From positions 25,162 to 89,161 of the IMG/VR virus record IMGVR_UViG_2528311002_000006: DNA of 64,000 bases, one strand, 5' to 3'. A program made the position numbers and the translations under genes. This stretch comes from a virus (Duplodnaviria; Caudoviricetes). A model generated the notes under the pieces. That model made no database searches and had not been told where the DNA came from. It saw only the letters and a program-made list of their open reading frames with translations. Positions 1 to 24,742 of the stretch are shown here, piece by piece (position 1 is the first letter of the stretch; each line of letters opens with the position of its first letter).

Positions 1-3000
1 TGGGCCGGGCTCATCTTGGATGCAGCCGAGGACACATTCAGGCGCTTACGCACATCGGGCAGGCTCTTCTTGTCGATCACGCGGCCCAGCAGGCGGCTGC
101 CGTCCACAGTCATAGTCCGCGCCACCTGAATGGAGCCATCCGTCTTCAAGCGATCCCAGATCGGCAGCATGGCGCCAACGATCATGTGCTTGCGCTCGGT
201 GTAGGTCTTGGGGCGGGCCTCGTTTTCTGCAGCCCAGAGCTTCATGGCCTCGGCCTTGGTCGAACCACGGAATGCCTTGGCAATCTCTGGGGCGGTCTTC
301 GACTGGACACTGCCCGTGCCGTAGAAGCGGAAGCGATCGACAACGGCACCTTCCTTGGTGGTTGACTTGCCTACCAGAGTCTTTGCATAGACCTTGCCCG
401 ACTTCACGTTCACCACGTACTCAGCCTTTTGCAGAGAATCCGGGAATGGGTAGATGGTGGTCGGCTGGGTCAGTTCCAGCTCAACCAGGCGGGTTTCGGC
501 GCCCGAACGCGGGTCGGTGTATGCCAGGTCATCCGCCACCACTCGTGACTCCAGCGCGCGAATCGTCTGCAGGCCAGCATCAAACTCGCCACGCTCCACC
601 GCCATCTCCACTTTCTCTTCCATGCGCAGCATGAAGGCATCGAACACTTTTTCCTGCATATCCAGCTTGAGGGACAGCATGCGGTTCAGGAAAGTGCGTG
701 TATCGGGCATCCGGTCTTCCGCGATGCGATTGGTTTCCTCGTCAATGATGCTTTCCAGCCCAGTCTGGCGCAGAAACTCCGCGAAGCTGATGCCGTCCAG
801 CTGCTGGTGCTGACCATCCTTGAAAAATTGCTGCACAGCCTGAGTCGCATAGATGGACTCCAGATTGTCCTTTTCGCTGAACATGCCCTGATTGGCAGTA
901 TCACGCTGGCCCTTGGTCAAAGCGCCAAGCTGATCCAGCCGGCGAGCGATGGCTGAAAGGAAGCGCTTCTGCGAAGGCACGTTGGTGGATGCCAGAAAGT
1001 AGTGAGGCGCGCTGGCCTGGTTGGTACGGTGAGTGCGGCCGAACCCCTGCACCGCTTTATCCGCACGCCAGCCGGGCTGGATCAGATAGTGGCTGCGCTT
1101 GCGCTTGTTCTTCTGCGTGTTGTCCGCGTGGAAGGAATAGCCGGTACCGCCCGCATCCGAGAACACCAGAATCGGCTTTTGGTCAGCCATGAAAGCATTG
1201 GCATCGGCGCGGGCCGATGCGGGGCCGCGAGACTCGAGTTGGGCTCGGAGCTCGCCATCCTTGTCCAGCTTGCGCACCACGCGCTGTGTGCGGCCGGTGA
1301 CCTCTGCCACCTTATCCACGCCGAAATGGTTCAGCACAATCTCCAGTGGGCCATCGGGGACGCGGATGTCCTTGAGATCCTTCAGGAGAGCTTCGCGCAT
1401 GGCCACGGCCTCCCGGTTGATGACCGGGTTGCCTTGCGAATCCTTGGCAGGCACGCGGATTTTCTTGCCCGAATCGTCTTCCTGCTCCTCGAACTGGGTA
1501 ACAGGGAACGACTTTTCAACCATCTGCATCAGCACATCGCGTGGCGTGAGATCCAGCTCTTCCAAGTCGGCGGACTCGTCTTCCTCCCGACGCTTGGCGA
1601 TTGAGCGGTTCTGCTGGGCCTCGTTGGTGTTGACCAGCTGCAGCACCAGGGCCTTGCCATCGGCAACGTCGCGCTCCATCTGCTCGAGCACCGAAGGCAT
1701 TTGCATGCTGGTGATGACCTGGCTGAAGAAGCGCTGCTGTGCTCCCCAGTATGCGGACATGGCTGCGCTCTTGGCCGAGGAAGAGCCCTTGCCGTTTTCG
1801 CCCACGGCACCCGTGGTCTTCAAAGCAGCGTCAATGTTCTGCAGCGTGACCTGCCACGCCTCAGCCAAACGGTTGTAAATGTCCTGCTGCAGCGGTGACA
1901 GCTGATGCTCAACGCGCGAATACGTCACGCCCTCAAAGGAGAGGCTACGTGCCATGTACGCCCCCATCTGTTTCAGATCGCGCGCCACCAGCTCCATAGC
2001 TGCCAGACCGCCAGCGGTCATTTCAGCAATGAAGTTCTGCACACTGGCAAAAGGTGTTGCCGGGCCCCACAGGCCCAGACGAGTGGCGAAAGACAGGTTG
2101 GAAACCTGGGTCGCACCAGTTGCGGACACGTAGACCACTCGGGCATTGGGCAGACGCTTTTGCAGCTCGACCACAGCCAAGGCCTGGGCGGAGGGCTGGG
2201 ACTGGCCTCGCGTGCCCTTCTGGGCTACAGCATTGCCGGCGTTATGCGCCTCATCGAAAGCAATCACGCCGTCGAAGTCCTTACCCAGCCAATTTACCAG
2301 CTGATCCAGGCGGGACTGCCCTTCCTTCTTGCTGCCCTTGGCCGGCTGCGCGGTGCGGCCCGACAGCCAATCACTCTGGCCACCGATGGACTCCACGCTG
2401 GTATAGCGGATGAATTTCAGCTCACCGCCCACCTTCACCCAGACCTTGCCGCCGTCATCCTTGGGGTCGATGTGATCCAGAGGGAATGTGCCGCGGCCAT
2501 TCGTAGTGACCACATCCAAGCCCTTGGGGAACTGCTTGGCGAACTGTGCCTTGGTGATGGGAGCGGCAACATTCTCCTGAGACTTCGCGCCGCTGCGCAA
2601 AGTGGCATAGCTCAGGAATGCGATACCCTGATCAGCGTTGATCTGCTCTTCTGCCTTGGTCTTGCTGACACTGAAGATCTGCTTGGGGTCGCCACCGATG
2701 CCCGAGAAATCGCGCTGTGCATCTGGCATCAGTCCGGGCTTTTCCGAAATCCAGACCGCCTTTTCACGGCCCTGGCGCATATTGTCCAGAATGATGCCCG
2801 AGATCTCGCGCCCCTTGCCCACTCCGGTGCCGTCACCGATGAAGAAGCCGCGACGATAGGCGACATCCTTCCCGTCAACGGTCACGGGCTCCAGCAGCTC
2901 CTGATGAGCCTGGCCGGCATAAACGACTGCCTCAATCTGGGCAATCGACAGCAGGCCTTTTTCAATGGTTTCCTTGGGCAGGTTCGGCGTGTATGTCGGT

Positions 3001-6000
3001 ACGGGCGGCAACACGGCGGCCATGGCCGAGGATTGCACCAGCGGGCCGGGGTGCGGCTTGGCACCGGGTACTTGCAGACGCTGGGGCTGGTAGGACTCAA
3101 AGATCGAGTCGCTCAGGCCAGCTGCGGGATCGCCGGTCTGCTCAGTCGCCTGAATGCTTACAGCTGATTGGGCGGCATCAGATCCGCTACCTCCTGCAGC
3201 AGCAGCATCGCGGCCTCCTCCAGCGTCGTCGTTTCCAGCAGTTCGACCTGTGCCAGATTCTGAGCCATTGTCTCTGGTTCCTCCAGATCCGCCAGCGCCG
3301 CTGCGCCCTCCACTTCCTGCGCCCAGCCCCTGTCCCCGGCCAGATTTTGCGCGGCCCACATCAGAACGCTGGTCACGGCCAGATTGTTCGGGCTGTGCGG
3401 AACCCCGGCCTGCTTGAGAAGACTCAGCAAGTGCATACTCTGCGGCGTCGAGTTCAAGTCCGTCACGATCGTTTGACGGGAAAACAGATTCTGGTCGGTC
3501 ATTGCGGATCTCGGCAAGGCTGCCAATGAGGTCACTGTAAGTCTTGGCAGGAGTTGTGACAATAGGTCGATGGGACGGCTTCACCTTGTCGATCACCAAA
3601 ATGGCGTTGTCGAAGGTCGTGCCGTACTTGGCGTAGCCGGAACCATCCATGGGGATCACGGCGCGCACGTCATACTTGGCGCGAATGCCCTTCCACCAGT
3701 CGGCGAAGGCCGGGCGGTCGAGATTCATGCCCTCACCCACGATGGCCACCAAACGGCCACCATCTGCCAGGCGCTTCAAGCCCTGCTCAACATGCTGGGC
3801 GCCGACATGCGTGTCACGCTTGCCTTGAATGCGACCAGCGGTCGCGCTGAAGGGTGGGTTCATCACCACCACGGAAGGGATCTCCGTCACGGGCAGGATG
3901 TTATCGATCTGCTCAGCGTTCTCCGTGAAAACCTTGGCTGCCGGGAACACCTCACGCAACACGGCTGCACGGCGGCTGCTGAGCTCATTCAGGATCAGCT
4001 TGGCACCCGCATTCTTGGCAAAGGCCGCCAGACCTCCGATGCCAGCGCTGGGCTCCAGCATCGTGTCGCTGCTGTCCATGTTTGCCGCCCAGTTGGCTGC
4101 ATAGGCCAGGGCTGGAACGGTACTGAACTGCTGGAACTCATCTTGTTCCGCAGTGCGCTTCGTCTGAGTCGGCAGCATCTGCGTGATGCGGTGCAGACGT
4201 TCCACGATGATGTGAGCTGCATCCTGGGTGGCGTTCGGGTTGAACTCTCCGGGCCGGGACAGAATGAATTGGTTGACCCCCGCCTCCATGGCGTCGTAGG
4301 CATCCTTGGGCGTGTACTTGCCCTCAGCCTGCGTGCCTCCGAAGGCGGAATCAGCTTGTTCAAACAATGCGCGCCAGTCGAAACTGCCGTCAGCCGCGCC
4401 GCGCTCCAGCTGGGACTTCACCCAGTCGGCCAGTACGCCAGAGGGGCTGCGAGCAGCGCCAGCAGCTGGCGCCTTGCCCAATTGCGCGGTCAGGCCCTCA
4501 TCCTTGGCGAACTGGATGGCGTAATCCTTGACCCCATCGCCAAAGTTCTGGATCAGCAGCTTGAACAGATCCTTGAGCGACTTGCCAGCTGCTTGGAAGG
4601 ATGCGAGCGCAGCCTTGAAATGCGGCTTGGCCGCCTTGTAGGTTTCCTCATCGAAGCCGGCCGGGAAGGAGTTCAGACGCCCGCCCTTGCCGCCGCCGAA
4701 CAGCTTGGCCAGGCCCGACAGCGCTTCATTGGCACCGGTCACGCCCAACTTAGCAGCCTCGGCGATCAACTTGGCCGCGGTCTTGTCTGCCTGTCCGGGC
4801 ACAGCTTGAGCAGCAACAGCAACAGTTTCGTCGAAAGCGGCTGCTTCGTGGGTGGCCGGCACATTCGGCTGTTCCTGGGTTTGCTCGCGCAACTCGGCTG
4901 CCGCCTGATCAAAGATTGCACTCAGATCGTCATCGGACAGGGGGCCACGGGATTCCGAAGGCGCAGGAGCATCCACTACCGCGGGCTTGCTCAGTGCCTC
5001 GAGCTCGGCCAGAGCCTGCTCGGCCATGGCATCTACCTTGGCTTTGTCCTCAGCCTGCTTCTCGAGCTCGAGACGGGCCTTTTCCTCCGCAGCCATGGCG
5101 CGCTCTTCCTGCACCTGCTCGAAGTAGGCCTGCATACCCTCCTTGGATAGGAGCTCCCTGCGGCGTACTTCTCCGGCGCCAATGTCGGCGGACAGGTTCT
5201 TTTCAAAGTCCGCTACGGTCACAGTGGGCTTGCCATCGGTGAACTTCACGGACTTGGCCAGAGCCGTCAGGTACTGCCCAAACACGACCCGCTCTGCACC
5301 GGTGGGATAAGGCGTGCCGCGATAGCCGCTGGCCTGTGTCACCTTGCCATCGCCCACCCAGTCACGGTTGACCAGATAAGAGTTGGTGCCGCCCAGGCTG
5401 TCCGCAGACCAGGCCTCAACGGCGCGTGCCAGCAGTTCGGCGTCGTTGCCCCAATAGTCCTTGCCCAGTTTGTCCGCATTTTCTTTGTAGGCCGTCAGTC
5501 CACGGCGGGCGCCGGAATTGGCGTAGTAGCGCAGGCCTTGGATGGCCGCATCCACCTTGTCTTGGTTCTTGTTGCCCTGCCAGTAGGAGCCGCCCACCAG
5601 GAAATTGCGGGCCACGCGCTCCCAGTCGGAAGCCTCATAGGCCTTGAATTTGAAGGCGTTAAGGATCATGGCCTTGACTCGATCCCATTCGCCGCCCAGG
5701 TTGTGGTCGAGTGCATGAGCCCACTCGTGATACACCGTGCCGTCGCCCTTGGTGTTGGTCAGGTTCATGACCTGCACGCGGCCATTGGGCCCGGGGTGGT
5801 TGGGACTGAAATGCGCAGCGAACTTGCCATGACCCAGCGCGCCCACAGTGAAGTGCAACACGCCGCCCAGACCGATGTTCTTTGGTGCAATGCCGAAGTG
5901 TTCAGCTAGATCCATGAAGGCGTCGAAGGCGTAGTTCAGGTGATCTTGGTCGTTCTTGGCTCCGACCCAGTTGCCAAAGCCCACATCCGCGAAGCCGAAC

Positions 6001-9000
6001 AGTGCCTTGAACTGCGCGGGCGTCACATCCTTGCCGCCGCGATGATCCTTGGGCATGGCGCGATCGACACGATCCAGCTTTGGCGGTGTCAGCGGCGTGG
6101 CGCGCGTGGGCAACTCATGCGTTGCCTCGTTCGCAATCAGGCCCGAGGCCCAGGGGCCGGCCGCACGGAACTTGGTGAAATCGTAGGAGTCGCCATTCCA
6201 CACTCCACGGTCAAACACTCCACCGCCGTGAACGCCGTACAGCACACCGTCCAGGCGATCCGCGTTGATACGCTCATAGCGGCTGTAGTAGCTGTCCCGG
6301 CTGCGGGCTTTCTCTTGGTGCTGCTCTGCGACCATGGTGTCCACAAAGCGCTCAGCAACCTCCTTCAACGAACTGGCGCCATCAAGGAAGGCCGTGAGCT
6401 GCTGCACCTTCTCTATATAGAGCTCGGCAGCATCGCGCAGCTGAGCCATGCGGAACACCGGGTCGGTCTGCCACTGCTGGCGCTGCTCGATCGACATGGC
6501 GCCGGGGTAGCGCTTGCCCTCCAGAACGAACTCCAGATTTTCTGCATCCCTGCCCTTGCGGCCCACGGACACAGAGCCATACCAGCTGGATCGGCCGTCG
6601 AACAGGAACTGCTTGAAAGTCTTGGTGACGCCGCGCAACTGGGTCACGTATGCCACCCAGCCAGGGGTAGAGCCTTCGGGTAGATAAGGCGAAAACAGCT
6701 CGGCGCGGTTAGTGGCCGCTTCGATTTGCTTCCATGCCTTTTGCATGTCGGACTCGCCGGCCTTCATCTGGGCCTTCATGGCCTCCCAGTGGCGACGCAG
6801 ATCCACACCCGTGTTTTCCAGCTTCTTGCGGCGCTTGCCTTCAAACCAGGCTGCGCCCTCCTCCGTACCGATCCATTCGCCCGCTGCCTCATAGCCCTTC
6901 ACCATGTCCACCAGGCCGGCCCCGGAGAGAGTGCTCTTGGTTTTGCCGGCCAAAGCATGGTCAAAGCCCAGCAGGAAATCGCCCTTGCTCTGGGGCGATA
7001 CGTCCTCGCCAAAGGCATTGCCCAAGGCCTCGGACTGGGCATCAGCCTTGACCTGGGGATCGCGCGCCGCTTCCTTGGCCAGCTGTGCCGCATTGGCCTG
7101 CAGCTGCTTATGGATGGCGCGAGCCAGACGGGAAATCTGAACCGGGTTGAGCGCAGTGCTGGCGTCGCGGGAGCCGAGTTGCAGCTTGAGCGCTGCGGTC
7201 ACCTGATCCAGGCTCTTCCCGACCAGGCCCCCGTTGGCCCCTGTCAACTGGCGGAAAAGGTCGCGCTCCACTTCGCGGGAAGCCTTGCGGGCTTCTTGTT
7301 CAGCGGCCTTCTTAACCGCAGCTTCACGCTCGCTGCGCTCGGCCTCTGTCCTTGTATTTGATACCTTGTCGATGGCAGACCGGGAATCCAGCTTGAAACC
7401 CGCACCACTGGGACTATGAAGGACTTTCAGAGTTGTTGGACTCTTGTAGTCAGATTCATAGCCAGCGCGTGTCATCACACGAACTTGCACCTGATCTTTG
7501 TCCAAGGCATCGTGAAACTCTGCGATCTGGGCATCGGATGGCTCCGAATACGAGAGTGTCGCAGCTCCGCGATCAAGCAACTTCAAGCGCCCGTTGGCAT
7601 CCAACATGTACCAATCGCCGCCAACCACCTCCATGACTGGATAGCGAACACCGCGCTCTGTGACAACGCCCTTTCCTGCCGCTTTGATAGCCTTCCACAA
7701 GGCATCAGAGCTTTCAGCAAGACGCGGCTTGGCATTCGCACTAGAGCCGTGATCCTCCGTTTTCTGGGTTCCGCCCTGAGTGTGTTCCGGTGCCTTGCCA
7801 GCGGCAGCAGCCCTGTTCTTGTGCGCCCGCTCTTTGGCCAAACGCAGTGCCTCGGCCACGCCGGCGCGATCGCGCGACAGACCGTTGACTGCAAATTTCC
7901 CGCCTTCCTTGAGCGAAATCGTGTCCCCCATGGGAACGATCTCGAAGCCGTCGGGCAGTTCCTTGCGGTGCTGCGCCAGCGCCTTGAGGAAATCCGCGTT
8001 CGACTGCGTAGCCGATTCGGGTGCCTCAACGCCGCGATCAGCAGTGACGCTCTGTCCAGTCTCAGCACCGTCAGCAACGGTCGAGCTCGGAAAGTCGTGC
8101 GCCAGCTTGACGAGCTCATCGATGGGAGCACTCAAGCGGATCGTCCGCACATCCTCACCGTTCTCCAATGCAGCGACCCACTGGTGATGGCCATCCAACA
8201 CATGACCGTCACTGGAAGCCAGAATGGCGCGATTGCCACCGGCATAGGCCTTGGCCTTCTCTACCTTTTCGCGGCTGAACTCGCGCTGAGTGGGCTTGAG
8301 GCTGGAAGCAGGCACTGTCGCCTCTTCATGCGCCACGCCGCGCGCGTTCATGAAATTGACCATGGCGCCGCGGTGCTCGGCCTTGATCTGGGGCATTTCC
8401 GCGCGAGGCACGGCCTTGGTACCCGACTCAGGGGCGAACTCGGCCCAGCCATCGCCCAGATCGCGCCCAGCAATCCCGGTACCGGGATTCTGGTTGGCGA
8501 CCGACTGGCCCGCGCCAGCCGTTGCCGCCTCTGCCTCAGCTGCAGCCACCGCCGCCTGCTTGGCTTTGATAAGAAACGCTTTTTCCTGCTGCACGACCTC
8601 ATAGCCGTCCTGCAGATCGTTGTCCGCCAGGAAAGCTTCTGCCTTGGGCTTGGAGAAGAAGTAAGCCCCCTTCTCGCTGTTGATGCGCTCGATGGCTTTC
8701 TGCTGGCGCTGGCTCGCAAGGTTCGACGCAGGAGTGGCGGCGGCCGGTGCCGGCGCCGCTGCAGGAGCTTGAGCAGTTGGGGCTGTGAAGCCGGCCATGC
8801 TTTCATGCTCGCGGTCTTTGAGGCCGAAGACCTTTTGACGATCGGTCAGCACGCCGCCGTCGCGCAGTGCCTGGGCCACCTGGCCACGAGTTGCGCCGGC
8901 AGGAACAGTGATGGGCTCGCCGCTGTCGTAATCCAGAGCCTCATAGTTGCCCAAATACACAACGCCGTCGCGCACAGACACGGCATCACCCGTCTTGGGG

Positions 9001-11519
9001 GTGCTGCCGATGGTCATCGCGTCGGAGCCCTGCTGACCTGCCCGCTTCGCTTCCGAATCTATAGCATTATTCGATTCACCAGATTCATTCTGGGCGCTAT
9101 ATGTTGGCGAATCGTTTCTTTGTCCGCCGTAATCCGCTCCTGCTTTTGCAGCAACTTGAGCTGCTGGCGCTTGGCCTTGCGCTGCATTCTGCGCTGGTTC
9201 TTGCGGGCGATTGTTGATAGCTGGGGCGGAGCCATGGCCTACGCCTTCCCCCAAATGCCCAGGTGCAGTGCCAATGCCTGAAACGCTCTGGTCTTGTCCG
9301 CCAGCTTCGCCTTGTCGGCCAACTTCGCTTCCTTGCGCTGGTCTTGCTTGCGCCTGTTGCGCTGTGATTTGCTGGGCTTGATCGGCTTCACGGCCATCGA
9401 GATCTCCGTTGATGTTGAATGGCGATGCCGCTGGAGCGGCGTTCTCCCTGCTGGACGAAAGTGCCAACAGTGGGTTCTGGAGCGACAGGGGTTGAGCCGC
9501 ATCAATGGAAGCAGCCGCTGGTTCGGACTGCGCTGCATCGACCGCCATTGCGGCGGCTTTCGAGTTGGGCCCGGCGCTGGGATCGATGCCCAGACGCTCT
9601 GATGGCTTGCGCCGAACCAGGGACTCCAATGCCGCGTTGTCGGCAAACTCATCGACCAGAGGGTTTTGAGCGGCGAGATCACCCGGCAGTGGCGCGGGCG
9701 TGGATTTCCCGGTGAATGCCGCATGCGCATCGAGCAGACGACGAGCGCGTGCAGCCTCGTCCTGCGCGAGCGGTTGCTCACCAATGCGAGTCAGGGCCTC
9801 GTTCAGATAGTTGATTGACTGGGCCGTGCCCATGGCGCCGCTGTCCATGGCGTTCTGCAGACCGGAAAGAATTCGGCTGGTGCGCACCTGGGCGTCAACG
9901 GCGGCTGTGGAAACCGCTTCACCAGGCACTGCTGCCGCCAGCTCTTGTCCCATTTGCTGGCCAGCAATACCTGCAGCCTCAACGGCCGATGCGGGCTGCT
10001 GCTTCACGTTGGCCTCAAGCCAAGCGTCTTCCATGGTGGTGCGCACAGCATCGACAGTCTGCTGATCGCTGAACTGCGTGCCGCCGCGAATGGCTGCTTG
10101 AACAGCGCCCAGATGATCTTGCAGCGGCTGGTACGGCAGCCCGAAGGAGTGATTGCGATAGTCCTCTTGCCAGGGCACGAGATCGGGAATCTCAAACTCG
10201 TAGGGCTCGGGAGAGGAATAGCCCAGCAAACGGGCGCGCTCCTTCATCATCCGGCGCTCGCCGGCAGGGGTACCATCATTGAGACTGCTCAGGTACGACT
10301 CCATTTCGGAGAGGCGTCCTGTGGAACCGTCAGGATGGGTGAACAGGGTATCGGGGGGCTGATTGGTCAGCAGCAGAGGCGCCGGGGTGCCTGCCTCGGG
10401 CGCACCATCCGCCGAGCCCGTCCCGTTCGCGCGCTTGTCGCGCAGCGGGCTGGTCGCAGCCTGGTAGGCCTTCTGGCCGCCGTACATGAGGGCCGATTGC
10501 CCCACGGACGAGATCGCTTCCAAAGCCGCGTTCTTGGTGTCCCAGTCTCCGGTGGCAACGCCCTGGCCCACGAACTCGCCAGCAAACTCGCCTGCAGGAT
10601 CAAGGGCGGCAACGCCCACGTTACGTGCGACATTACCTGCTCCTGAGGTTGCTGCCTGGAAAGTCGCGTCCTTGGCGATCAGATCCTTGAAAGCGTCGGA
10701 CTTCTGAGCAGCCTTGACAGCCGCGCCATCCGTCAAGTCAACGCCCATCTTCGTAAGGGCACGGTCTGCTGCAGCTCGTGCAGGCGCGTTCAGGATCTTG
10801 CCACCAGCGCCAGCAGTGGCCGCGTCAACGGCACCGATGATGGCGCCCTTGATGGCAGCATCACCCAGCGCTGCATCGCCTTGCTCGCGGGTGAACTTCT
10901 CCACGGCCGCGGTGTCTTGAGGATTGATGCCGGCCTTGTTCAGGCGATCCATGAGCATGCCACCGCCCTCGACCAGCGTATTGCCAGCAGAGGCGCCCGC
11001 CCACGCGCCAGCAGCCAGACCAACGGGCCCCGCAGCCGCGCCGCCCGCCACACCACCGCCCACCATACCGACCATCGGTGCCAGCATATTGGGCACCTGG
11101 GCAACCAGGCCATCGCCCATGGCTTTGGCATTGCCGGCCACCGAGCGCACGCCACCTACCCAGTTGGGAGCTTCCTTCCAATCCTTGGCGATTTCACCGG
11201 CAACACCCTTGATGCCACCTGTAATGCCGTCGCCTTGCTCCCATGCCTTGGAGAGCTCCTGACCCTGCTGGCTCCCTGGGTTGACGCGGTTGTAGTCGTC
11301 AAACTCCTTGACGCGGCGTGCAACAGCTGCAGCATCACCCGTAGCCAGATCCTTGGTGATGCCAACCGAGTTGGTCATCGACTTCCAACCGCGAACCAAA
11401 GCGTTATCTTGCTCGGGCGCACCCAAGAAGTTATCAATGTTGGAAGTGGCTTTATTAGGTGCTGCGGGCGTGGCACCGGTCGATGGCTTGCCGCTCAGGA
11501 AGTCGTCAATTTGGCTCAT
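1..11519 (-). CDS. Giant polyvalent virion/DarB-like protein, >3839 aa, 3'-truncated (ParB-like, LPD1-like, N6-adenine MTase, Strawberry-notch SF2 helicase)
   Basis: ATG at 11519 (MSQIDDFL); same frame reads at both ends; absent from ORF track because there is no stop in the window. Motifs: DGHHQW (~8180), HEWAH (~5720), LEPSAGIG (~4045), NPPF (~3855), GDGTGVGKG (~2825), FDEAH (~2250). Confidence 0.9.
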   Translation of the reverse strand, partial: MSQIDDFLSGKPSTGATPAAPNKATSNIDNFLGAPEQDNALVRGWKSMTNSVGITKDLATGDAAAVARRVKEFDDYNRVNPGSQQGQELSKAWEQGDGITGGIKGVAGEIAKDWKEAPNWVGGVRSVAGNAKAMGDGLVAQVPNMLAPMVGMVGGGVAGGAAAGPVGLAAGAWAGASAGNTLVEGGGMLMDRLNKAGINPQDTAAVEKFTREQGDAALGDAAIKGAIIGAVDAATAGAGGKILNAPARAAADRALTKMGVDLTDGAAVKAAQKSDAFKDLIAKDATFQAATSGAGNVARNVGVAALDPAGEFAGEFVGQGVATGDWDTKNAALEAISSVGQSALMYGGQKAYQAATSPLRDKRANGTGSADGAPEAGTPAPLLLTNQPPDTLFTHPDGSTGRLSEMESYLSSLNDGTPAGERRMMKERARLLGYSSPEPYEFEIPDLVPWQEDYRNHSFGLPYQPLQDHLGAVQAAIRGGTQFSDQQTVDAVRTTMEDAWLEANVKQQPASAVEAAGIAGQQMGQELAAAVPGEAVSTAAVDAQVRTSRILSGLQNAMDSGAMGTAQSINYLNEALTRIGEQPLAQDEAARARRLLDAHAAFTGKSTPAPLPGDLAAQNPLVDEFADNAALESLVRRKPSERLGIDPSAGPNSKAAAMAVDAAQSEPAAASIDAAQPLSLQNPLLALSSSRENAAPAASPFNINGDLDGREADQAQQITAQQAQARPAQGSEVGRQGEAGGQDQSVSGIGTAPGHLGEGVGHGSAPAINNRPQEPAQNAAQGQAPAAQVAAKAGADYGGQRNDSPTYSAQNESGESNNAIDSEAKRAGQQGSDAMTIGSTPKTGDAVSVRDGVVYLGNYEALDYDSGEPITVPAGATRGQVAQALRDGGVLTDRQKVFGLKDREHESMAGFTAPTAQAPAAAPAPAAATPASNLASQRQQKAIERINSEKGAYFFSKPKAEAFLADNDLQDGYEVVQQEKAFLIKAKQAAVAAAEAEAATAGAGQSVANQNPGTGIAGRDLGDGWAEFAPESGTKAVPRAEMPQIKAEHRGAMVNFMNARGVAHEEATVPASSLKPTQREFSREKVEKAKAYAGGNRAILASSDGHVLDGHHQWVAALENGEDVRTIRLSAPIDELVKLAHDFPSSTVADGAETGQSVTADRGVEAPESATQSNADFLKALAQHRKELPDGFEIVPMGDTISLKEGGKFAVNGLSRDRAGVAEALRLAKERAHKNRAAAAGKAPEHTQGGTQKTEDHGSSANAKPRLAESSDALWKAIKAAGKGVVTERGVRYPVMEVVGGDWYMLDANGRLKLLDRGAATLSYSEPSDAQIAEFHDALDKDQVQVRVMTRAGYESDYKSPTTLKVLHSPSGAGFKLDSRSAIDKVSNTRTEAERSEREAAVKKAAEQEARKASREVERDLFRQLTGANGGLVGKSLDQVTAALKLQLGSRDASTALNPVQISRLARAIHKQLQANAAQLAKEAARDPQVKADAQSEALGNAFGEDVSPQSKGDFLLGFDHALAGKTKSTLSGAGLVDMVKGYEAAGEWIGTEEGAAWFEGKRRKKLENTGVDLRRHWEAMKAQMKAGESDMQKAWKQIEAATNRAELFSPYLPEGSTPGWVAYVTQLRGVTKTFKQFLFDGRSSWYGSVSVGRKGRDAENLEFVLEGKRYPGAMSIEQRQQWQTDPVFRMAQLRDAAELYIEKVQQLTAFLDGASSLKEVAERFVDTMVAEQHQEKARSRDSYYSRYERINADRLDGVLYGVHGGGVFDRGVWNGDSYDFTKFRAAGPWASGLIANEATHELPTRATPLTPPKLDRVDRAMPKDHRGGKDVTPAQFKALFGFADVGFGNWVGAKNDQDHLNYAFDAFMDLAEHFGIAPKNIGLGGVLHFTVGALGHGKFAAHFSPNHPGPNGRVQVMNLTNTKGDGTVYHEWAHALDHNLGGEWDRVKAMILNAFKFKAYEASDWERVARNFLVGGSYWQGNKNQDKVDAAIQGLRYYANSGARRGLTAYKENADKLGKDYWGNDAELLARAVEAWSADSLGGTNSYLVNRDWVGDGKVTQASGYRGTPYPTGAERVVFGQYLTALAKSVKFTDGKPTVTVADFEKNLSADIGAGEVRRRELLSKEGMQAYFEQVQEERAMAAEEKARLELEKQAEDKAKVDAMAEQALAELEALSKPAVVDAPAPSESRGPLSDDDLSAIFDQAAAELREQTQEQPNVPATHEAAAFDETVAVAAQAVPGQADKTAAKLIAEAAKLGVTGANEALSGLAKLFGGGKGGRLNSFPAGFDEETYKAAKPHFKAALASFQAAGKSLKDLFKLLIQNFGDGVKDYAIQFAKDEGLTAQLGKAPAAGAARSPSGVLADWVKSQLERGAADGSFDWRALFEQADSAFGGTQAEGKYTPKDAYDAMEAGVNQFILSRPGEFNPNATQDAAHIIVERLHRITQMLPTQTKRTAEQDEFQQFSTVPALAYAANWAANMDSSDTMLEPSAGIGGLAAFAKNAGAKLILNELSSRRAAVLREVFPAAKVFTENAEQIDNILPVTEIPSVVVMNPPFSATAGRIQGKRDTHVGAQHVEQGLKRLADGGRLVAIVGEGMNLDRPAFADWWKGIRAKYDVRAVIPMDGSGYAKYGTTFDNAILVIDKVKPSHRPIVTTPAKTYSDLIGSLAEIRNDRPESVFPSNDRDGLELDAAEYALAESSQAGRGSAQPEQSGRDQRSDVGRAKSGRGQGLGAGSGGRSGAGGSGGTRDNGSESGTGRTAGNDDAGGGRDAAAAGGSGSDAAQSAVSIQATEQTGDPAAGLSDSIFESYQPQRLQVPGAKPHPGPLVQSSAMAAVLPPVPTYTPNLPKETIEKGLLSIAQIEAVVYAGQAHQELLEPVTVDGKDVAYRRGFFIGDGTGVGKGREISGIILDNMRQGREKAVWISEKPGLMPDAQRDFSGIGGDPKQIFSVSKTKAEEQINADQGIAFLSYATLRSGAKSQENVAAPITKAQFAKQFPKGLDVVTTNGRGTFPLDHIDPKDDGGKVWVKVGGELKFIRYTSVESIGGQSDWLSGRTAQPAKGSKKEGQSRLDQLVNWLGKDFDGVIAFDEAHNAGNAVAQKGTRGQSQPSAQALAVVELQKRLPNARVVYVSATGATQVSNLSFATRLGLWGPATPFASVQNFIAEMTAGGLAAMELVARDLKQMGAYMARSLSFEGVTYSRVEHQLSPLQQDIYNRLAEAWQVTLQNIDAALKTTGAVGENGKGSSSAKSAAMSAYWGAQQRFFSQVITSMQMPSVLEQMERDVADGKALVLQLVNTNEAQQNRSIAKRREEDESADLEELDLTPRDVLMQMVEKSFPVTQFEEQEDDSGKKIRVPAKDSQGNPVINREAVAMREALLKDLKDIRVPDGPLEIVLNHFGVDKVAEVTGRTQRVVRKLDKDGELRAQLESRGPASARADANAFMADQKPILVFSDAGGTGYSFHADNTQKNKRKRSHYLIQPGWRADKAVQGFGRTHRTNQASAPHYFLASTNVPSQKRFLSAIARRLDQLGALTKGQRDTANQGMFSEKDNLESIYATQAVQQFFKDGQHQQLDGISFAEFLRQTGLESIIDEETNRIAEDRMPDTRTFLNRMLSLKLDMQEKVFDAFMLRMEEKVEMAVERGEFDAGLQTIRALESRVVADDLAYTDPRSGAETRLVELELTQPTTIYPFPDSLQKAEYVVNVKSGKVYAKTLVGKSTTKEGAVVDRFRFYGTGSVQSKTAPEIAKAFRGSTKAEAMKLWAAENEARPKTYTERKHMIVGAMLPIWDRLKTDGSIQVARTMTVDGSRLLGRVIDKKSLPDVRKRLNVSSAASKMSPA
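3158..3502 (-). CDS. Candidate overprinted 114-aa acidic helical protein in +1 frame of the giant gene
   Basis: Protein-like alternative-frame ORF over a G/S/R/D-rich linker; start uncertain. Confidence 0.4.
   Translation of the reverse strand: MTDQNLFSRQTIVTDLNSTPQSMHLLSLLKQAGVPHSPNNLAVTSVLMWAAQNLAGDRGWAQEVEGAAALADLEEPETMAQNLAQVELLETTTLEEAAMLLLQEVADLMPPNQL
9059..9235 (-). CDS. Candidate overprinted 58-aa basic peptide
   Basis: GGGGGAAGG SD-like 8 nt before ATG; MAPPQLSTIARKNQRRMQRKAKRQQ... Confidence 0.4.
   Translation of the reverse strand: MAPPQLSTIARKNQRRMQRKAKRQQLKLLQKQERITADKETIRQHIAPRMNLVNRIML
9239..9397 (-). CDS. Candidate overprinted 52-aa basic peptide
   Basis: GGAG 6 nt before ATG; MAVKPIKPSKSQRNRRKQDQRKEAK... 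Confidence 0.4.
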   Translation of the reverse strand: MAVKPIKPSKSQRNRRKQDQRKEAKLADKAKLADKTRAFQALALHLGIWGKA

Positions 11520-23240: not shown

Positions 23241-24005
23241 TCAGTACCCAATCTCTCTATCTAGTGGGGCCCAGTTGTTCTGGGATTGCGCCTGCGGCAT
23301 GGGCCTGACCTTGGCCTTGCGCAGCATCATCAGTGCGTATCGGGTGGCGCTCATCAAGTCGTCGCGCAGCTTGACCACCTTCCCGTCCTTGCGGTGGTAC
23401 AGGCGGAACTCGTCAAACCACGGGCTCAGGTGGCTGAACACCTTGAGGCGACCCGTCTGCATGCGCTCCAGCATGTCCATCAACCCGGCCTCGACCCCAT
23501 TGGAGCCATCGGGGAAGGTGGCGCGATCCTTGAGCATCAGCAGACCAGCTGCCGCGTACTGCTTTGCCAGCTGCTCGCCGCTGCCCTTGTCGTGCTGCAG
23601 CCCGTCATGTGGCCAGGATGTAGGCACCCATGGCCCCCAGGCCTTGATGGTGGCCGCATGGATGACCGGGGTTTGCAGGCTCTCTCGGTGGACATGCACC
23701 ACGTAGATGCAGTCCGCTTCGCGGTCGTAGGCCAGTTGCACCGCTGCTGTGGGGTGATCCCAGCCGAAGTCGATGCCATTGATGCGCGGCCAGTGGGCCG
23801 GTATCGCAAAAGGCGTGACCTTGATGCTGTCCTCTTCCACGGGGAAGATACGGCCGCTGCCCAGGGTGGGCGTGCCGCGCGCACGGGCTTCGCGCTCATG
23901 CGGTGGCGAGCTGTCCCACAGCTCCTTCTTGGTCTTGGCGTCCAAGTGCGGCACATCGTCCCAGCCAGCAGTGACGAGATAGCGGCTTTCGGTGACGGCT
24001 GGCAT
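23241..24005 (-). CDS. Terminase large subunit, nuclease half
   Basis: GIDFGWDHPTA, WPHDG, DDLMSATRYA. Confidence 0.88.
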   Translation of the reverse strand: MPAVTESRYLVTAGWDDVPHLDAKTKKELWDSSPPHEREARARGTPTLGSGRIFPVEEDSIKVTPFAIPAHWPRINGIDFGWDHPTAAVQLAYDREADCIYVVHVHRESLQTPVIHAATIKAWGPWVPTSWPHDGLQHDKGSGEQLAKQYAAAGLLMLKDRATFPDGSNGVEAGLMDMLERMQTGRLKVFSHLSPWFDEFRLYHRKDGKVVKLRDDLMSATRYALMMLRKAKVRPMPQAQSQNNWAPLDREIGY

Positions 24006-24742
24006 CAGTCAGCCTCCACTTTCCCCACTGCCTCGGGGTTGATGAACATCAACACCGTTCCGGTCGTGCCCTCCAGCGGGGTAAAGGTGATGTAGACAAT
24101 GCCGTTGGTGGTGGCGGTACGAATCAAGCACTCGCTGTAGATGTCCAGCGGCGGCTCTTCATCAAGCCAGATCCCGTGGCGCTCCGTGCCCTCAAAGCTG
24201 CCGCGCCCCTGCTGGTAGGACTTGAGGCCTAGCTGCGACCAGCCGCCCGACACATGCTTGACCATCACCGTGTCGGCAAGGTCGGCCACGCCCTGTTTCC
24301 AGGCAATCTTTCCAATGCAGTCCCCATAAATCAGCCCGGTACCGGAAAAGGCTTTGGCCTGGGCCACGCCCGTGACCGCGCCGAACAGCTTGTTCTGCAC
24401 GATGTCGCGGGTCGTCTCATTGGTCTTGCCAGCAGCCCAGAAGTTGACGGGGTGATCAAAGCGCCGCCCGTCCCACCAGTCGGGATAGCGGCCAGTCAGG
24501 TGCAAGGCAGTCTCATAACCGCCCATGCCCTCCGTCTTGCCCACCCGGTTGGCAGCCATGGCGCAGCGCTCTCGATAGGTCGCGCCCGCCTTGAAGAACT
24601 CCAGATGCTTCTTATAGAGCTCACGGCGAAGCGGCCCCTTGTCGGGGTACATGGTGTCGATTTTGCGGGTGGCCAGCAGTGCCTTGAGCTGGGCCAGCAT
24701 TTCGGCGCGCACCTCTGGAGATAGGCGGGATACATCCATCAC
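24005..24742 (-). CDS. Terminase large subunit, ATPase half
   Basis: AANRVGKT (Walker A), WLDEE (Walker B), TFTP (motif III). Confidence 0.88.
   Translation of the reverse strand: MMDVSRLSPEVRAEMLAQLKALLATRKIDTMYPDKGPLRRELYKKHLEFFKAGATYRERCAMAANRVGKTEGMGGYETALHLTGRYPDWWDGRRFDHPVNFWAAGKTNETTRDIVQNKLFGAVTGVAQAKAFSGTGLIYGDCIGKIAWKQGVADLADTVMVKHVSGGWSQLGLKSYQQGRGSFEGTERHGIWLDEEPPLDIYSECLIRTATTNGIVYITFTPLEGTTGTVLMFINPEAVGKVEAD

What the first reader, a model, noticed from the sequence alone, without database searches (positions are those of the whole stretch)
9059..9407. Two tandem, SD-preceded basic micro-ORFs overprinted inside the giant virion gene
Seen: in the +1 frame, over a low-complexity linker of the giant protein, a 52-aa ORF (GGAG-6nt-ATG) ends in TAG. 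Three nucleotides later a 58-aa ORF starts with its own GGGGGAAGG SD, like a mini-operon. Both peptides are K/R/Q-rich (KSQRNRRKQDQRK; RKNQRRMQRKAKR). Established: Arg-rich motifs bind nucleic acid, e.g. lambda N. Inference: hidden genes encoding RNA/DNA-binding or co-packaged peptides.
Basis: partly seen in the sequence, partly recalled or inferred. Interest (0 to 1): 0.75.

Follow-up and report, generated by a model that had tools for sequence, protein, structure and literature searches.

The report
Hidden small genes inside giant phage gene
Two tiny, very basic protein genes sit out of frame inside a 16-kb prophage virion-protein gene, and comparison with related phages shows that natural selection preserves the tiny proteins rather than the giant protein at that spot.

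Summary
ORF1 (window 9397..9239, 52 aa) and ORF2 (9235..9059, 58 aa) lie on the minus strand in the +1 frame of a 5,333-codon polyvalent virion-protein gene. Each follows an SD-like motif, and TAG plus one codon separates them.

From this one sequence that is not beyond chance. The +1 frame of the gene holds 29 open stretches of 50 codons or more. Given the main-frame protein, the ORFs and their basic make-up arise easily.

Comparison with relatives supports hidden genes:
- The same ATG...stop, one codon, ATG layout is kept in L001 and in 29 of 29 unique sequences of a distant clade (52-56% nucleotide identity).
- The +1 peptide is better conserved than the main-frame one (ORF2 N-terminus 55% against 27%).
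- An overlap-aware dN/dS test gives 0.18 for +1 (p=1.9e-4) and 0.64 (not significant) for the main frame. The rest of the gene gives 0.77 and 0.12.
- A scan of the whole gene flags only this site and a second embedded gene, ORF-X (3502..3158).

I read ORF1 and ORF2 (codons 1-34) as translated overlapping genes, confidence about 0.7. Nucleic-acid binding is untested inference. No translation data exist.

The parts
3..11519 (-). Window part of the giant host gene (main frame). The whole gene is 16,002 nt, or 5,333 codons, and continues beyond window position 1. It encodes a polyvalent protein with LPD1, AAA_34 and Strawberry-notch helicase-C domains.
   Evidence: the late-gene neighbourhood (terminase, SU10-type portal and adaptor) is
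9404..9407 (-). SD-like GGAG, 6 nt before the ORF1 ATG. Clade B has AAGGAAG 5 nt before its ATG.
9239..9397 (-). ORF1, 52 aa plus TAG, in the +1 frame, pI 11.2. Its length varies among relatives (47 aa in L001, 34 aa in clade B). The N-terminal 26 codons are the best conserved part.
9244..9252 (-). SD-like GGGGGAAGG, 8 nt before the ORF2 ATG, lying inside the end of ORF1. Most clade-B sequences have AGGAG 7 nt before their ATG.
9236..9241 (-). ORF1 stop (TAG) plus one spacer codon before the ORF2 ATG. The stop, one codon, ATG layout is kept in both clades (TAG in clade A, TGA in clade B), although the main-frame residues there differ.
9134..9235 (-). ORF2 conserved core, codons 1-34 (MAPPxLST.ARK followed by a basic stretch), net charge +10.
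9059..9133 (-). ORF2 tail, codons 35-58 plus TAG. It is not constrained in the +1 frame (dNN/dNS 1.83).
3158..3502 (-). ORF-X, a second embedded +1-frame gene of 114 aa, acidic (pI 4.1), lying over the G/S/R-rich linker of the giant protein.

Best explanation
ORF1 and the first roughly 34 codons of ORF2 are real protein-coding genes. They are overprinted in the +1 frame on an inter-domain linker of a giant polyvalent virion-protein gene in a temperate podovirus-like prophage.

Shown: the two ORFs, their stop, one codon, ATG junction and their SD-like motifs are conserved. Selection acts on the +1-frame peptides, while the main-frame peptide drifts almost neutrally at this spot. The Q/A-rich 'linker' is therefore better read as the out-of-frame shadow of the small genes than as their cause.

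Inferred: ribosomes start at the internal SD-ATG of ORF1 on the giant gene's mRNA. They reach ORF2 either through its own SD or by termination-reinitiation across the 3-nt gap.

Inferred with less support: the products are Lys/Arg-rich helical micro-proteins (net charge +11 and +12) that bind nucleic acid. They would act together with, or at the same time as, the giant protein.
For: 1. Architecture.
- L001 (85% aa identity in the best segment of the query region) keeps ORF1 (47 aa), the TAG and ORF2 (58 aa).
- A degenerate DNA pattern for the ORF2 N-terminus found 28 viral stretches. All 28 carry ORF1, a stop, one codon and ORF2 in the +1 frame of a long open main frame.
- I also retrieved clade B through an anchor that does not use ORF1 or ORF2 (ORF3). 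That gave 29 unique clade-B sequences, and 29 of 29 keep both ORFs.

2. Between clades (nucleotide identity 52-56%).
- ORF2 codons 1-28: +1-frame identity is 55%, main frame 27%, antisense frame sharing the wobble position 43%.
- ORF1 block: 49%, 40% and 41% respectively.
- In ORF2 codons 1-28, 9 codon pairs are synonymous but different in +1, against 2 in the main frame. They include TCA/AGC Ser and AGA/CGC Arg switches.

3. WIN against L001.
- Nei-Gojobori pN/pS over ORF1 plus ORF2(1-34): +1 frame 0.23 (14 synonymous, 11 non-synonymous, p=2.8e-4), main frame 1.47. The +1 frame is the lowest of six frames.
- Overlap-aware test: +1 dNN/dNS 0.18 (p=1.9e-4); main dNN/dSN 0.64 (p=0.36). Control, rest of the gene: 0.77 and 0.12 (p=4e-180).
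- Main-frame synonymous rate dSN is 0.087 here against 0.294 elsewhere.

4. Within clade B.
- ORF1 plus ORF2(1-28): +1 NN/NS 0.23 (p=1.2e-5).
- The signal stops at ORF2 codon 29. It is absent in the gap between ORF2 and ORF3, and it returns over ORF3 (0.17, p=9.5e-10).
- Identity at the main-frame wobble position is 0.87-1.00 over -120..+120 around the ORF2 ATG, against 0.55-0.77 in the upstream flanks and most of the downstream ones.

5. Scan of the whole gene.
- WIN against the L001 record (G405): only windows at ORF1/ORF2 and at ORF-X show an off-frame excess of synonymous differences.
- Other giant genes, 41 pairwise comparisons under a stricter rule: one marginal window, seen in two pairs that share L008.

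6. Main-frame GC3.
- It is 0.386 in the 114 overlapped codons against 0.711 elsewhere (Fisher p=1.7e-12).
- The gene-wide minimum falls exactly at codon 707.

7. A sludge-metagenome variant (runs X2 and X5, identical differences).
- 25 of 31 differences outside the ORFs are main-frame synonymous. Inside the ORFs only 3 of 9 are.

8. More distant relatives.
- A profile search found three called proteins that start with the same MAPP..L.T motif: P0017, P0018 and P0019, with E-values from 3.3e-15 to 1.4e-5.
Against: - There is no evidence of translation (no ribosome profiling, no mass spectrometry), so 'translated' rests on evolutionary signatures alone.
- Clade A has only two assembled members plus metagenome variants. 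Clade B is shallow (92-99% identity in the cassette), and my variant counts in it are not corrected for phylogeny.
- The between-clade dN/dS is saturated and only marginal (0.63, p=0.061).
- The antisense frame that shares the wobble position inherits part of the signal (pN/pS 0.38, p=0.0077).
- Given the main-frame protein, the ORFs and their basic composition arise easily.
- ORF2 of this window has no called homologue of 31-102 aa in the word-based search.
- ORF1 and ORF2 match no Pfam or PHROG family at a credible E-value.
- ORF2 codons 35-58 are unconstrained.
- No sigma-70-like promoter was found nearby.
- Pairwise pS along the gene is mosaic (0.00-0.85), so low local variation alone would not be decisive.
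Confidence: 0.72

Rival explanations
1. The ORFs are a chance by-product. They are open only because a Q/A-rich, stop-poor linker in a 60% G+C gene reads as K/R/Q-rich in the +1 frame, and they are neither translated nor selected.
For: The +1 frame holds 29 open stretches of 50 codons or more. Six of 26 comparable off-frame ORFs have an SD-like motif. In the codon-redraw control ORF1 stays open in 73% of draws and ORF2 in 93%, and K+R content is not unusual (P=0.26). There is no family match.
Against: The +1 peptide is conserved better than the main-frame peptide across 52-56% nucleotide identity. Purifying selection is specific to the +1 frame in two independent comparisons, and its boundaries coincide with the ORFs. 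The stop, one codon, ATG junction is kept in all 31 unique sequences although the main-frame residues there change. Only two places in the 5,333-codon gene show the signal.
Confidence: 0.1
2. The +1 frame is read by programmed frameshifting from the main frame, not from its own start codons. The result would be a truncated giant-protein isoform with a basic C-terminal tail ending at the ORF1 stop.
For: In the window the +1 frame is open for 129 codons upstream of the ATG (ORF 9239..9784). Conservation of the +1 peptide up to a conserved stop would fit this as well.
Against: It does not explain conservation of ORF2 beyond the stop, or of the ATG and SD-like motif of each ORF. Upstream of the ATG the +1 frame is not conserved: nearly all X2 differences at 9433..9789 are main-frame synonymous and +1 non-synonymous. 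In some clade-B sequences the +1 frame is closed by a stop 14 codons upstream (L068). I did not search for a slippery site.
Confidence: 0.06
3. The conserved element is a nucleic-acid signal rather than a coding sequence: an RNA structure, an sRNA, or a DNA site such as a packaging, replication or regulatory site.
For: Within clade B all three codon positions are 91-100% identical over about 240 nt. Either an RNA/DNA element or dual coding would produce this.
Against: RNAalifold gives a covariation term of +1.53, which is unfavourable, and many predicted pairs are broken in clade A. There is no Rfam match. Differences between clades fall on the +1 wobble position and include Ser and Arg codon-family switches that keep the amino acid but change three bases.
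Confidence: 0.05
4. The coding frame is on the opposite strand: the antisense frame that shares its wobble position with the +1 frame. In the window this is part of the 621-aa ORF 7416..9281 (+).
For: It has the second-lowest pN/pS (0.38, p=0.0077), 43% identity between clades in block 2, and it is open throughout the cassette in clade B.
Against: It scores below the +1 sense frame on every measure. It is interrupted by one stop in the window and two in L001, at places that are open in clade B. No ATG (Met) codon occurs in it within the cassette in clade B, and no start or stop is conserved. A shared wobble position makes it inherit the sense-frame signal automatically.
Confidence: 0.04

Closest known systems
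Rz1 embedded in Rz of phage lambda (o-spanin gene inside the i-spanin gene); recalled, not from a call
   Same: A small gene lies wholly inside a larger phage gene, on the same strand, in the +1 frame, with its own start.
   Different: Rz1 is a lipoprotein with a signal sequence and a lipobox Cys. ORF1 and ORF2 have no Cys and no hydrophobic leader. The host gene here is a 5,333-codon polyvalent protein gene, there are two tandem micro-ORFs, and the host frame at the overlap is a nearly neutral linker.
Overprinted genes of small viruses such as phiX174 (B in A, E in D, K), and overlapping genes detected by frame-specific selection. Overviews appeared in the search listing (PMC8227390, PMC6188560, PMC8850804; titles and abstract starts only).
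   Same: Dual coding on one strand. It is detected by an excess of alternate-frame synonymous change and by suppressed host-frame synonymous change.
   Different: Here the setting is a large dsDNA prophage record (about 89 kb) with no obvious pressure on genome size. The overlap is confined to disordered linkers of one giant gene, and at least two separate embedded loci occur in that gene.
Polyvalent proteins of phages and conjugative elements (Iyer et al. 2017, PMC5512222; I read passages with the find mode only)
   Same: The host gene fits this class. It has LPD1 and a Strawberry-notch-type helicase, and it lies among late virion genes, as that paper describes for phage polyvalent proteins. 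A methylase and a ParB-like segment are my own reading of the sequence and of annotations of related phages.
   Different: In that paper's main text the word 'overlapping' occurs 0 times and 'reading frame' once. Embedded out-of-frame genes in the linkers are not described there.
Arginine-rich-motif peptides such as the N-terminal peptide of lambda N (Pfam PF25694 N_peptide)
   Same: A short, very basic, probably helical N-terminal segment. The nearest language-model clusters for ORF2 carry PF25694 in 30% and 75% of their members, at score 0.79.
   Different: A score of 0.79 is below the tool's own 0.9 lead threshold. hmmscan finds no PF25694 match at E up to 10. The genes lie inside a late structural gene, not in an early operon next to nut sites.

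Membership tests
Same-strand overprinted (embedded, out-of-frame) protein-coding gene | The ORF, with its start and stop, is conserved in relatives that have diverged at the nucleotide level. | tested here: met
   L001 keeps both ORFs. So do 28 of 28 pattern hits and 29 of 29 unique clade-B sequences retrieved through ORF3. Nucleotide identity between clades is 52-56%.
Same-strand overprinted (embedded, out-of-frame) protein-coding gene | Purifying selection in the alternate frame, measured with the overlap taken into account (dNN/dNS below 1). | tested here: met
   0.18, p=1.9e-4 (WIN against L001). 0.23, p=1.2e-5 (clade B). The control, the rest of the gene, gives 0.77. This holds for ORF1 and ORF2 codons 1-34 only. 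ORF2 codons 35-58 give 1.83.
Same-strand overprinted (embedded, out-of-frame) protein-coding gene | Reduced synonymous variation of the host frame across the overlap. | tested here: met
   dSN is 0.087 against 0.294 elsewhere. Wobble identity is 0.87-1.00 against 0.55-0.77 in the upstream flanks and most of the downstream ones in clade B. pS is 0.02-0.11 with pN at or above pS, only here.
Same-strand overprinted (embedded, out-of-frame) protein-coding gene | The alternate-frame product is translated (ribosome footprints, peptides). | not testable with these tools
   The runs found were DNA metagenomes kept as contigs, or RNA runs holding under 12% of the words. No ribosome-profiling or proteome data were available.
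Lambda-N-type antiterminator (Pfam PF25694 N_peptide) | Sequence match to the family model. | tested here: not met
   No PF25694 hit for 3 ORF2 and 2 ORF1 sequences at E up to 10. There is only a language-model lead at 0.79.
Lambda-N-type antiterminator (Pfam PF25694 N_peptide) | An early-operon position next to nut/boxB sites (a feature recalled from the literature). | tested here: not met
   The ORFs lie inside the giant gene of the late structural block, downstream of terminase, portal and adaptor. I did not search for boxB-like hairpins.
Rz1-type embedded o-spanin | A lipoprotein signal with a lipobox Cys (a feature recalled from the literature). | tested here: not met
   ORF1 and ORF2 contain no Cys and start with a Pro-rich, basic sequence.
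Polyvalent protein (the host gene) | Many unrelated effector domains in one polypeptide encoded among virion genes. | tested here: met
   LPD1, AAA_34 and Helicase_C_4 lie in one 5,333-codon ORF. The neighbours are terminase, SU10-type portal and adaptor. The ParB-like segment matches 'structural protein' and 'methyltransferase' genes of F116-like phages.

The most novel reading that the evidence does not exclude
The low-complexity 'linkers' of this family of giant polyvalent virion proteins are not spacers. They are the out-of-frame shadows of embedded small genes that selection maintains: ORF1, ORF2 and ORF-X in this phage, and ORF1, ORF2 and ORF3 in a second phage group with an unrelated terminase. 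ORF1 and ORF2 would be a translationally coupled pair of Arg/Lys-rich nucleic-acid-binding micro-proteins. They would be made by internal initiation on the giant mRNA and would work with the giant ejected protein, for example on the incoming or packaged genome. The giant gene would then be a carrier of a hidden small proteome that annotation pipelines discard.
Probability: 0.3. Interest if true: 0.8.

Novelty: new variant of a known kind. Interest (0 to 1): 0.68.

Why it matters
Gene callers routinely discard same-strand embedded ORFs, and in G+C-rich DNA most such ORFs are noise. Here an unbiased scan of a 16-kb gene picks out exactly two places where selection has switched frames. At both places the giant protein's 'disordered linker' turns out to be the by-product of a small gene.

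If translation is confirmed, four things follow:
- Several unannotated proteins are added to a widespread group of Pseudomonas- and Delftia-type prophages.
- A concrete, mutable model becomes available for how internal initiation works inside a very long translated gene.
- The way low-complexity linkers of polyvalent proteins are read would change.
- Giant phage genes would be a good place to look for hidden microproteins, possibly ones involved in genome delivery or counter-defence.

Tried and rejected
- Nucleotide searches of the region (blastn, 'distant' mode) against plasmids and cultured phages found nothing. tblastn of ORF2 and of clade-B ORF3 against cultured phages found nothing.
- Pfam and PHROG scans of ORF1, ORF2, ORF3 and ORF-X gave nothing credible. 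The best were DUF6381 at E=0.0087, below its cut-off, and Red1 at 0.0027 for the 181-aa extension.
- ORF2 of the window had no called homologue of 31-102 aa.
- BLASTP of ORF1 against ORF2 gave no alignment, so I make no paralogy claim.
- A promoter and terminator scan found 0 promoter-like sites and 1 terminator-like site on the wrong strand, within the shuffle expectation.
- Rfam gave only a snoRNA chance hit at E=0.35. RNAalifold showed no covariation support.
- AlphaFold models of ORF-X (pLDDT 52.0) and ORF3 (pLDDT 63.6) were too weak to use. The Foldseek PDB search for ORF3 gave one match at E=8.7. I did not fold ORF1 or ORF2.
- The ESM Atlas lead (N_peptide, 0.79) was not confirmed.
- A search of 401 genomes of one bacterial order for ORF3 found 2 genomes, so it added no diversity. 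The metagenome scan added 11 loci, all 94-97% identical in ORF3.
- The window's own record has no ORF3 homologue. Three clade-B records and L002's record have no ORF-X.
- In read laying only 40 of 186 differences were printed, so I could not analyse the X9 and X12 variants site by site. X9's deletions in the ORF1 tail (24 gap letters in its record, 18 of them listed in that tail) are reported only as length variation.
- I did not use complex prediction, because I do not claim that particular proteins bind each other.
- I did not look for a slippery site for the frameshift rival.
- I did not ask for supplementary files of papers. Those of PMC5512222 might list this protein family.

Full report
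WHAT IS THERE

The window belongs to an 89-kb provirus record. Its minus strand carries a late structural block: small terminase, a large terminase split into two ORFs, an SU10-type portal and adaptor, and an Arc-like protein.

After that block comes one giant ORF. It starts at window 11519 and runs off the window. With the neighbouring DNA it is 16,002 nt, or 5,333 codons.

Pfam finds LPD1, AAA_34 and the Strawberry-notch helicase C domain in it. Its ParB-like segment matches 'structural protein', 'methyltransferase' and 'internal virion' genes of F116-like Pseudomonas podophages. It is therefore a polyvalent protein in the sense of Iyer et al. 2017 (PMC5512222; I read passages only), and 'giant virion gene' is a fair label.

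THE OBSERVATION

ORF1 runs 9397..9239 (52 aa, GGAG, 6 nt, ATG, ending in TAG). After 3 nt comes ORF2, 9235..9059 (58 aa, with GGGGGAAGG 8 nt upstream). Both lie in the +1 frame over a Q/A/G-rich stretch of the main frame. Their net charges are +11 and +12.

IS THE ANATOMY ALONE MEANINGFUL?

No, on three counts:
- The +1 frame of the windowed gene has 29 open stretches of 50 codons or more. The exact-opposite antisense frame has only 16 stops in 11.5 kb.
- Six of 26 off-frame ATG ORFs of 50 aa or more have an SD-like 4-mer upstream.
- I kept the main-frame protein and redrew synonymous codons from the gene's own usage. ORF1 stayed open in 73% of draws and ORF2 in 93%. The ATGs appeared in 53% and 44%. 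K+R content was ordinary (P=0.26). Only the ORF1 stop, which needs the rare GTA codon, was unlikely (6.8%).

From one sequence, the finding cannot be told apart from a by-product of the linker.

COMPARATIVE EVIDENCE

Homologues and retrieval
- A protein search with the surrounding main-frame segment found 38 viral and 10 genomic loci.
- One locus, L001, is a close relative (85% in the best segment over the full query). It keeps ORF1 (47 aa after a 15-nt deletion), the TAG and ORF2 (58 aa).
- tblastn with the two peptides then hit eight more distant loci from residue 1 of each peptide.
- In these loci the +1 frame reads ATG, 34 codons, TGA, one codon, ATG, 56 codons.
- A degenerate pattern for the ORF2 N-terminus found 28 viral stretches, and all 28 had this layout.
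- To avoid circularity I retrieved this second group (clade B) again through a third +1-frame ORF downstream, ORF3. ORF3 has called protein homologues at 66-96% identity.
- That retrieval gave 29 unique sequences, and 29 of 29 keep ORF1 and ORF2. Two of the 29 have a stop inside ORF3.
- Clade-B records have no match to this phage's TerL N-terminal ORF. The cassette is therefore shared by phages with different packaging genes.

Which frame is conserved?
- Between the clades nucleotide identity is only 52-56%.
- Over ORF2 codons 1-28 the +1 peptide is 55% identical. The main frame is 27%, and the antisense frame that shares the wobble position is 43%. Over the ORF1 block the figures are 49%, 40% and 41%.
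- In ORF2(1-28) nine codon pairs are synonymous but different in +1, against two in the main frame. They include TCA/AGC and AGA/CGC switches.
- The stop, one codon, ATG junction survives although the main-frame residues there differ (V-G-H-G against L-T/S-N/D/Y-G).
- SD-like motifs precede both ATGs in both clades, although their sequences differ.

Selection tests, window against L001
- Over ORF1 plus ORF2(1-34), pN/pS is 0.23 in +1 (p=2.8e-4). That is the lowest of six frames. The main frame gives 1.47.
- An OLGenie-style count separates sites by their effect in both frames. It gives dNN/dNS of 0.18 for +1 (p=1.9e-4) and dNN/dSN of 0.64 for the main frame (p=0.36).
- The rest of the gene gives 0.77 and 0.12 (p=4e-180).
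- The main-frame synonymous rate falls to 0.087 here from 0.294.
- ORF2 codons 35-58 show no +1 constraint (1.83). The functional ORF2 is therefore its N-terminal 34 residues or so.

Selection tests, within clade B
- The +1 signal (0.23, p=1.2e-5) covers ORF1 and ORF2(1-28).
- It vanishes over ORF2(29-56) and over the gap before ORF3.
- It returns over ORF3 (0.17, p=9.5e-10).
- Main-frame wobble identity jumps from 0.55-0.77 in the upstream flanks and most of the downstream ones to 0.87-1.00 over the cassette.

Other supporting results
- The sludge-metagenome variant (runs X2 and X5) has 25 of 31 differences that are main-frame synonymous outside the ORFs, and 3 of 9 inside.
- Main-frame GC3 is 0.386 in the overlap against 0.711 elsewhere (p=1.7e-12). 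The gene-wide minimum lies exactly at codon 707.

Controls
- A sliding scan of all 5,333 codons (window against the L001 record) flags an off-frame excess of synonymous differences in six windows. All six lie at ORF1/ORF2 or at a second site, codons 2714-2814.
- The four other SD-preceded +1 ORFs of similar size (starts at 10633, 8602, 850 and 640) are not flagged.
- Across 41 pairwise comparisons of other giant genes, under a somewhat stricter rule, one marginal window appeared.

THE SECOND SITE, ORF-X

ORF-X runs 3502..3158 and encodes 114 aa, acidic, over the G/S/R-rich linker. Its +1 dNN/dNS is 0.10 (p=4.5e-8), while the main frame gives 0.57, not significant. Three called homologues of 112-114 aa share its start.

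ORF-X serves as a positive control for the method. It also generalises the finding: both low-complexity linkers examined in this protein are overprinted.

RIVAL EXPLANATIONS
- RNA structure or a DNA site: no covariation, no Rfam family, and the pattern of change follows the codon phase.
- Antisense coding: weaker on every measure, and that frame is broken by stops at non-conserved places.
- Frameshift isoform: cannot explain ORF2 or the conserved starts, and the +1 frame upstream of the ATG is not conserved.
- Chance: contradicted by all of the comparative evidence above.

MECHANISM AND FUNCTION
- Shown: conserved ORFs, and purifying selection specific to their frame.
- Inferred: internal initiation at the SD-ATG on the giant mRNA, and coupling of ORF2 to ORF1 across the 3-nt gap.
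- Function is open. The products are short, Pro-rich at the start and then strongly basic.
- The only external pointer is a language-model proximity of ORF2 to clusters carrying the lambda-N peptide family (0.79, below the tool's lead threshold). hmmscan did not confirm it.
- I take nucleic-acid binding as the most likely activity, at about 0.35-0.4 given that the genes are real. Membership in the N family is not supported, and neither is a spanin role (no Cys).

NOVELTY

Embedded +1 genes in phages are a known kind (Rz1, phiX174; recalled). The new elements are these:
- The setting inside linkers of a giant polyvalent protein.
- The tandem coupled micro-ORF pair.
- More than one embedded locus in one gene.

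Two full-text searches found no paper describing this. In the polyvalent-protein paper the word 'overlapping' does not occur in the main text. These searches cover open-access papers and bioRxiv only.

LIMITS
- There are no translation data.
- Clade A is small and clade B is shallow, and the clade-B counts are not corrected for phylogeny.
The DNA around the divergent homologues P0018 and P0019 therefore could not be examined.

VERDICT

The 'hidden genes' interpretation is supported at about 0.7. The proposed function is unproven. Interest is 0.68.

Noticed in passing
window 3158..3502 (-): ORF-X is a second +1-frame gene embedded in the giant gene, over its G/S/R-rich linker. It encodes 114 aa and is acidic (pI 4.1). 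The +1 frame is under strong purifying selection (dNN/dNS 0.10, p=4.5e-8), while the main frame is nearly neutral there. Three called homologues of 112-114 aa exist. It has no Pfam or PHROG family, and the AlphaFold model has pLDDT 52.
   Followed up: yes
L043:1489-1698 (+), and the same place in all clade-B loci: ORF3 is a third embedded +1-frame gene (69 aa, AAGGAG, 6 nt, ATG). It lies downstream of ORF2 in clade B only, and the main frame there is A/G/P-rich. It has called homologues at 66-96% identity, and its +1 NN/NS is 0.17 (p=9.5e-10). Two of 29 unique sequences (L114, L118) carry a stop inside it. The window's own record has no ORF3.
   Followed up: partly
window 23241..24742 (-): The large terminase is split into two ORFs, an N-terminal ATPase part (245 aa) and a C-terminal nuclease part (254 aa). 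They are joined by an overlapping TGATG at 24005. The close relative G405 has the same split (open frame 260 aa at 98% identity). This could be a real two-gene terminase, a programmed frameshift or a shared defect.
   Followed up: partly
proteins P0013, P0017, P0018, P0019: P0013 (73 aa, on a 540-nt contig) joins the ORF2 N-terminus in frame to the ORF3 C-terminus, so it is a natural deletion variant. P0018 and P0019 are more divergent called proteins with the same MAPP..L.T..K basic N-terminus. I could not fetch their DNA context.
   Followed up: no
window 9266..9308 (ORF1 C-terminal half): This part of ORF1 varies in length among relatives. ORF1 is 52 aa here, 47 aa in L001 and 34 aa in clade B. 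One metagenome variant (run X9) has 24 gap letters in its record, and the 18 listed ones fall in this stretch.
   Followed up: partly
window 7416..9281 (+): A 621-aa ORF lies exactly antisense to the giant gene. That antisense frame has only 16 stops in 11.5 kb. This is the usual by-product of codon bias in G+C-rich genes and not a gene.
   Followed up: partly
clade-B loci, about +180 to +700 from the ORF2 ATG (for example L043): The main-frame motif RIDAGRAAWASMP.AERKAL occurs twice in clade-B giant proteins; the second copy reads RWTSMPAAERQAV. One copy is overlapped by the unconstrained tail of ORF2.
   Followed up: no
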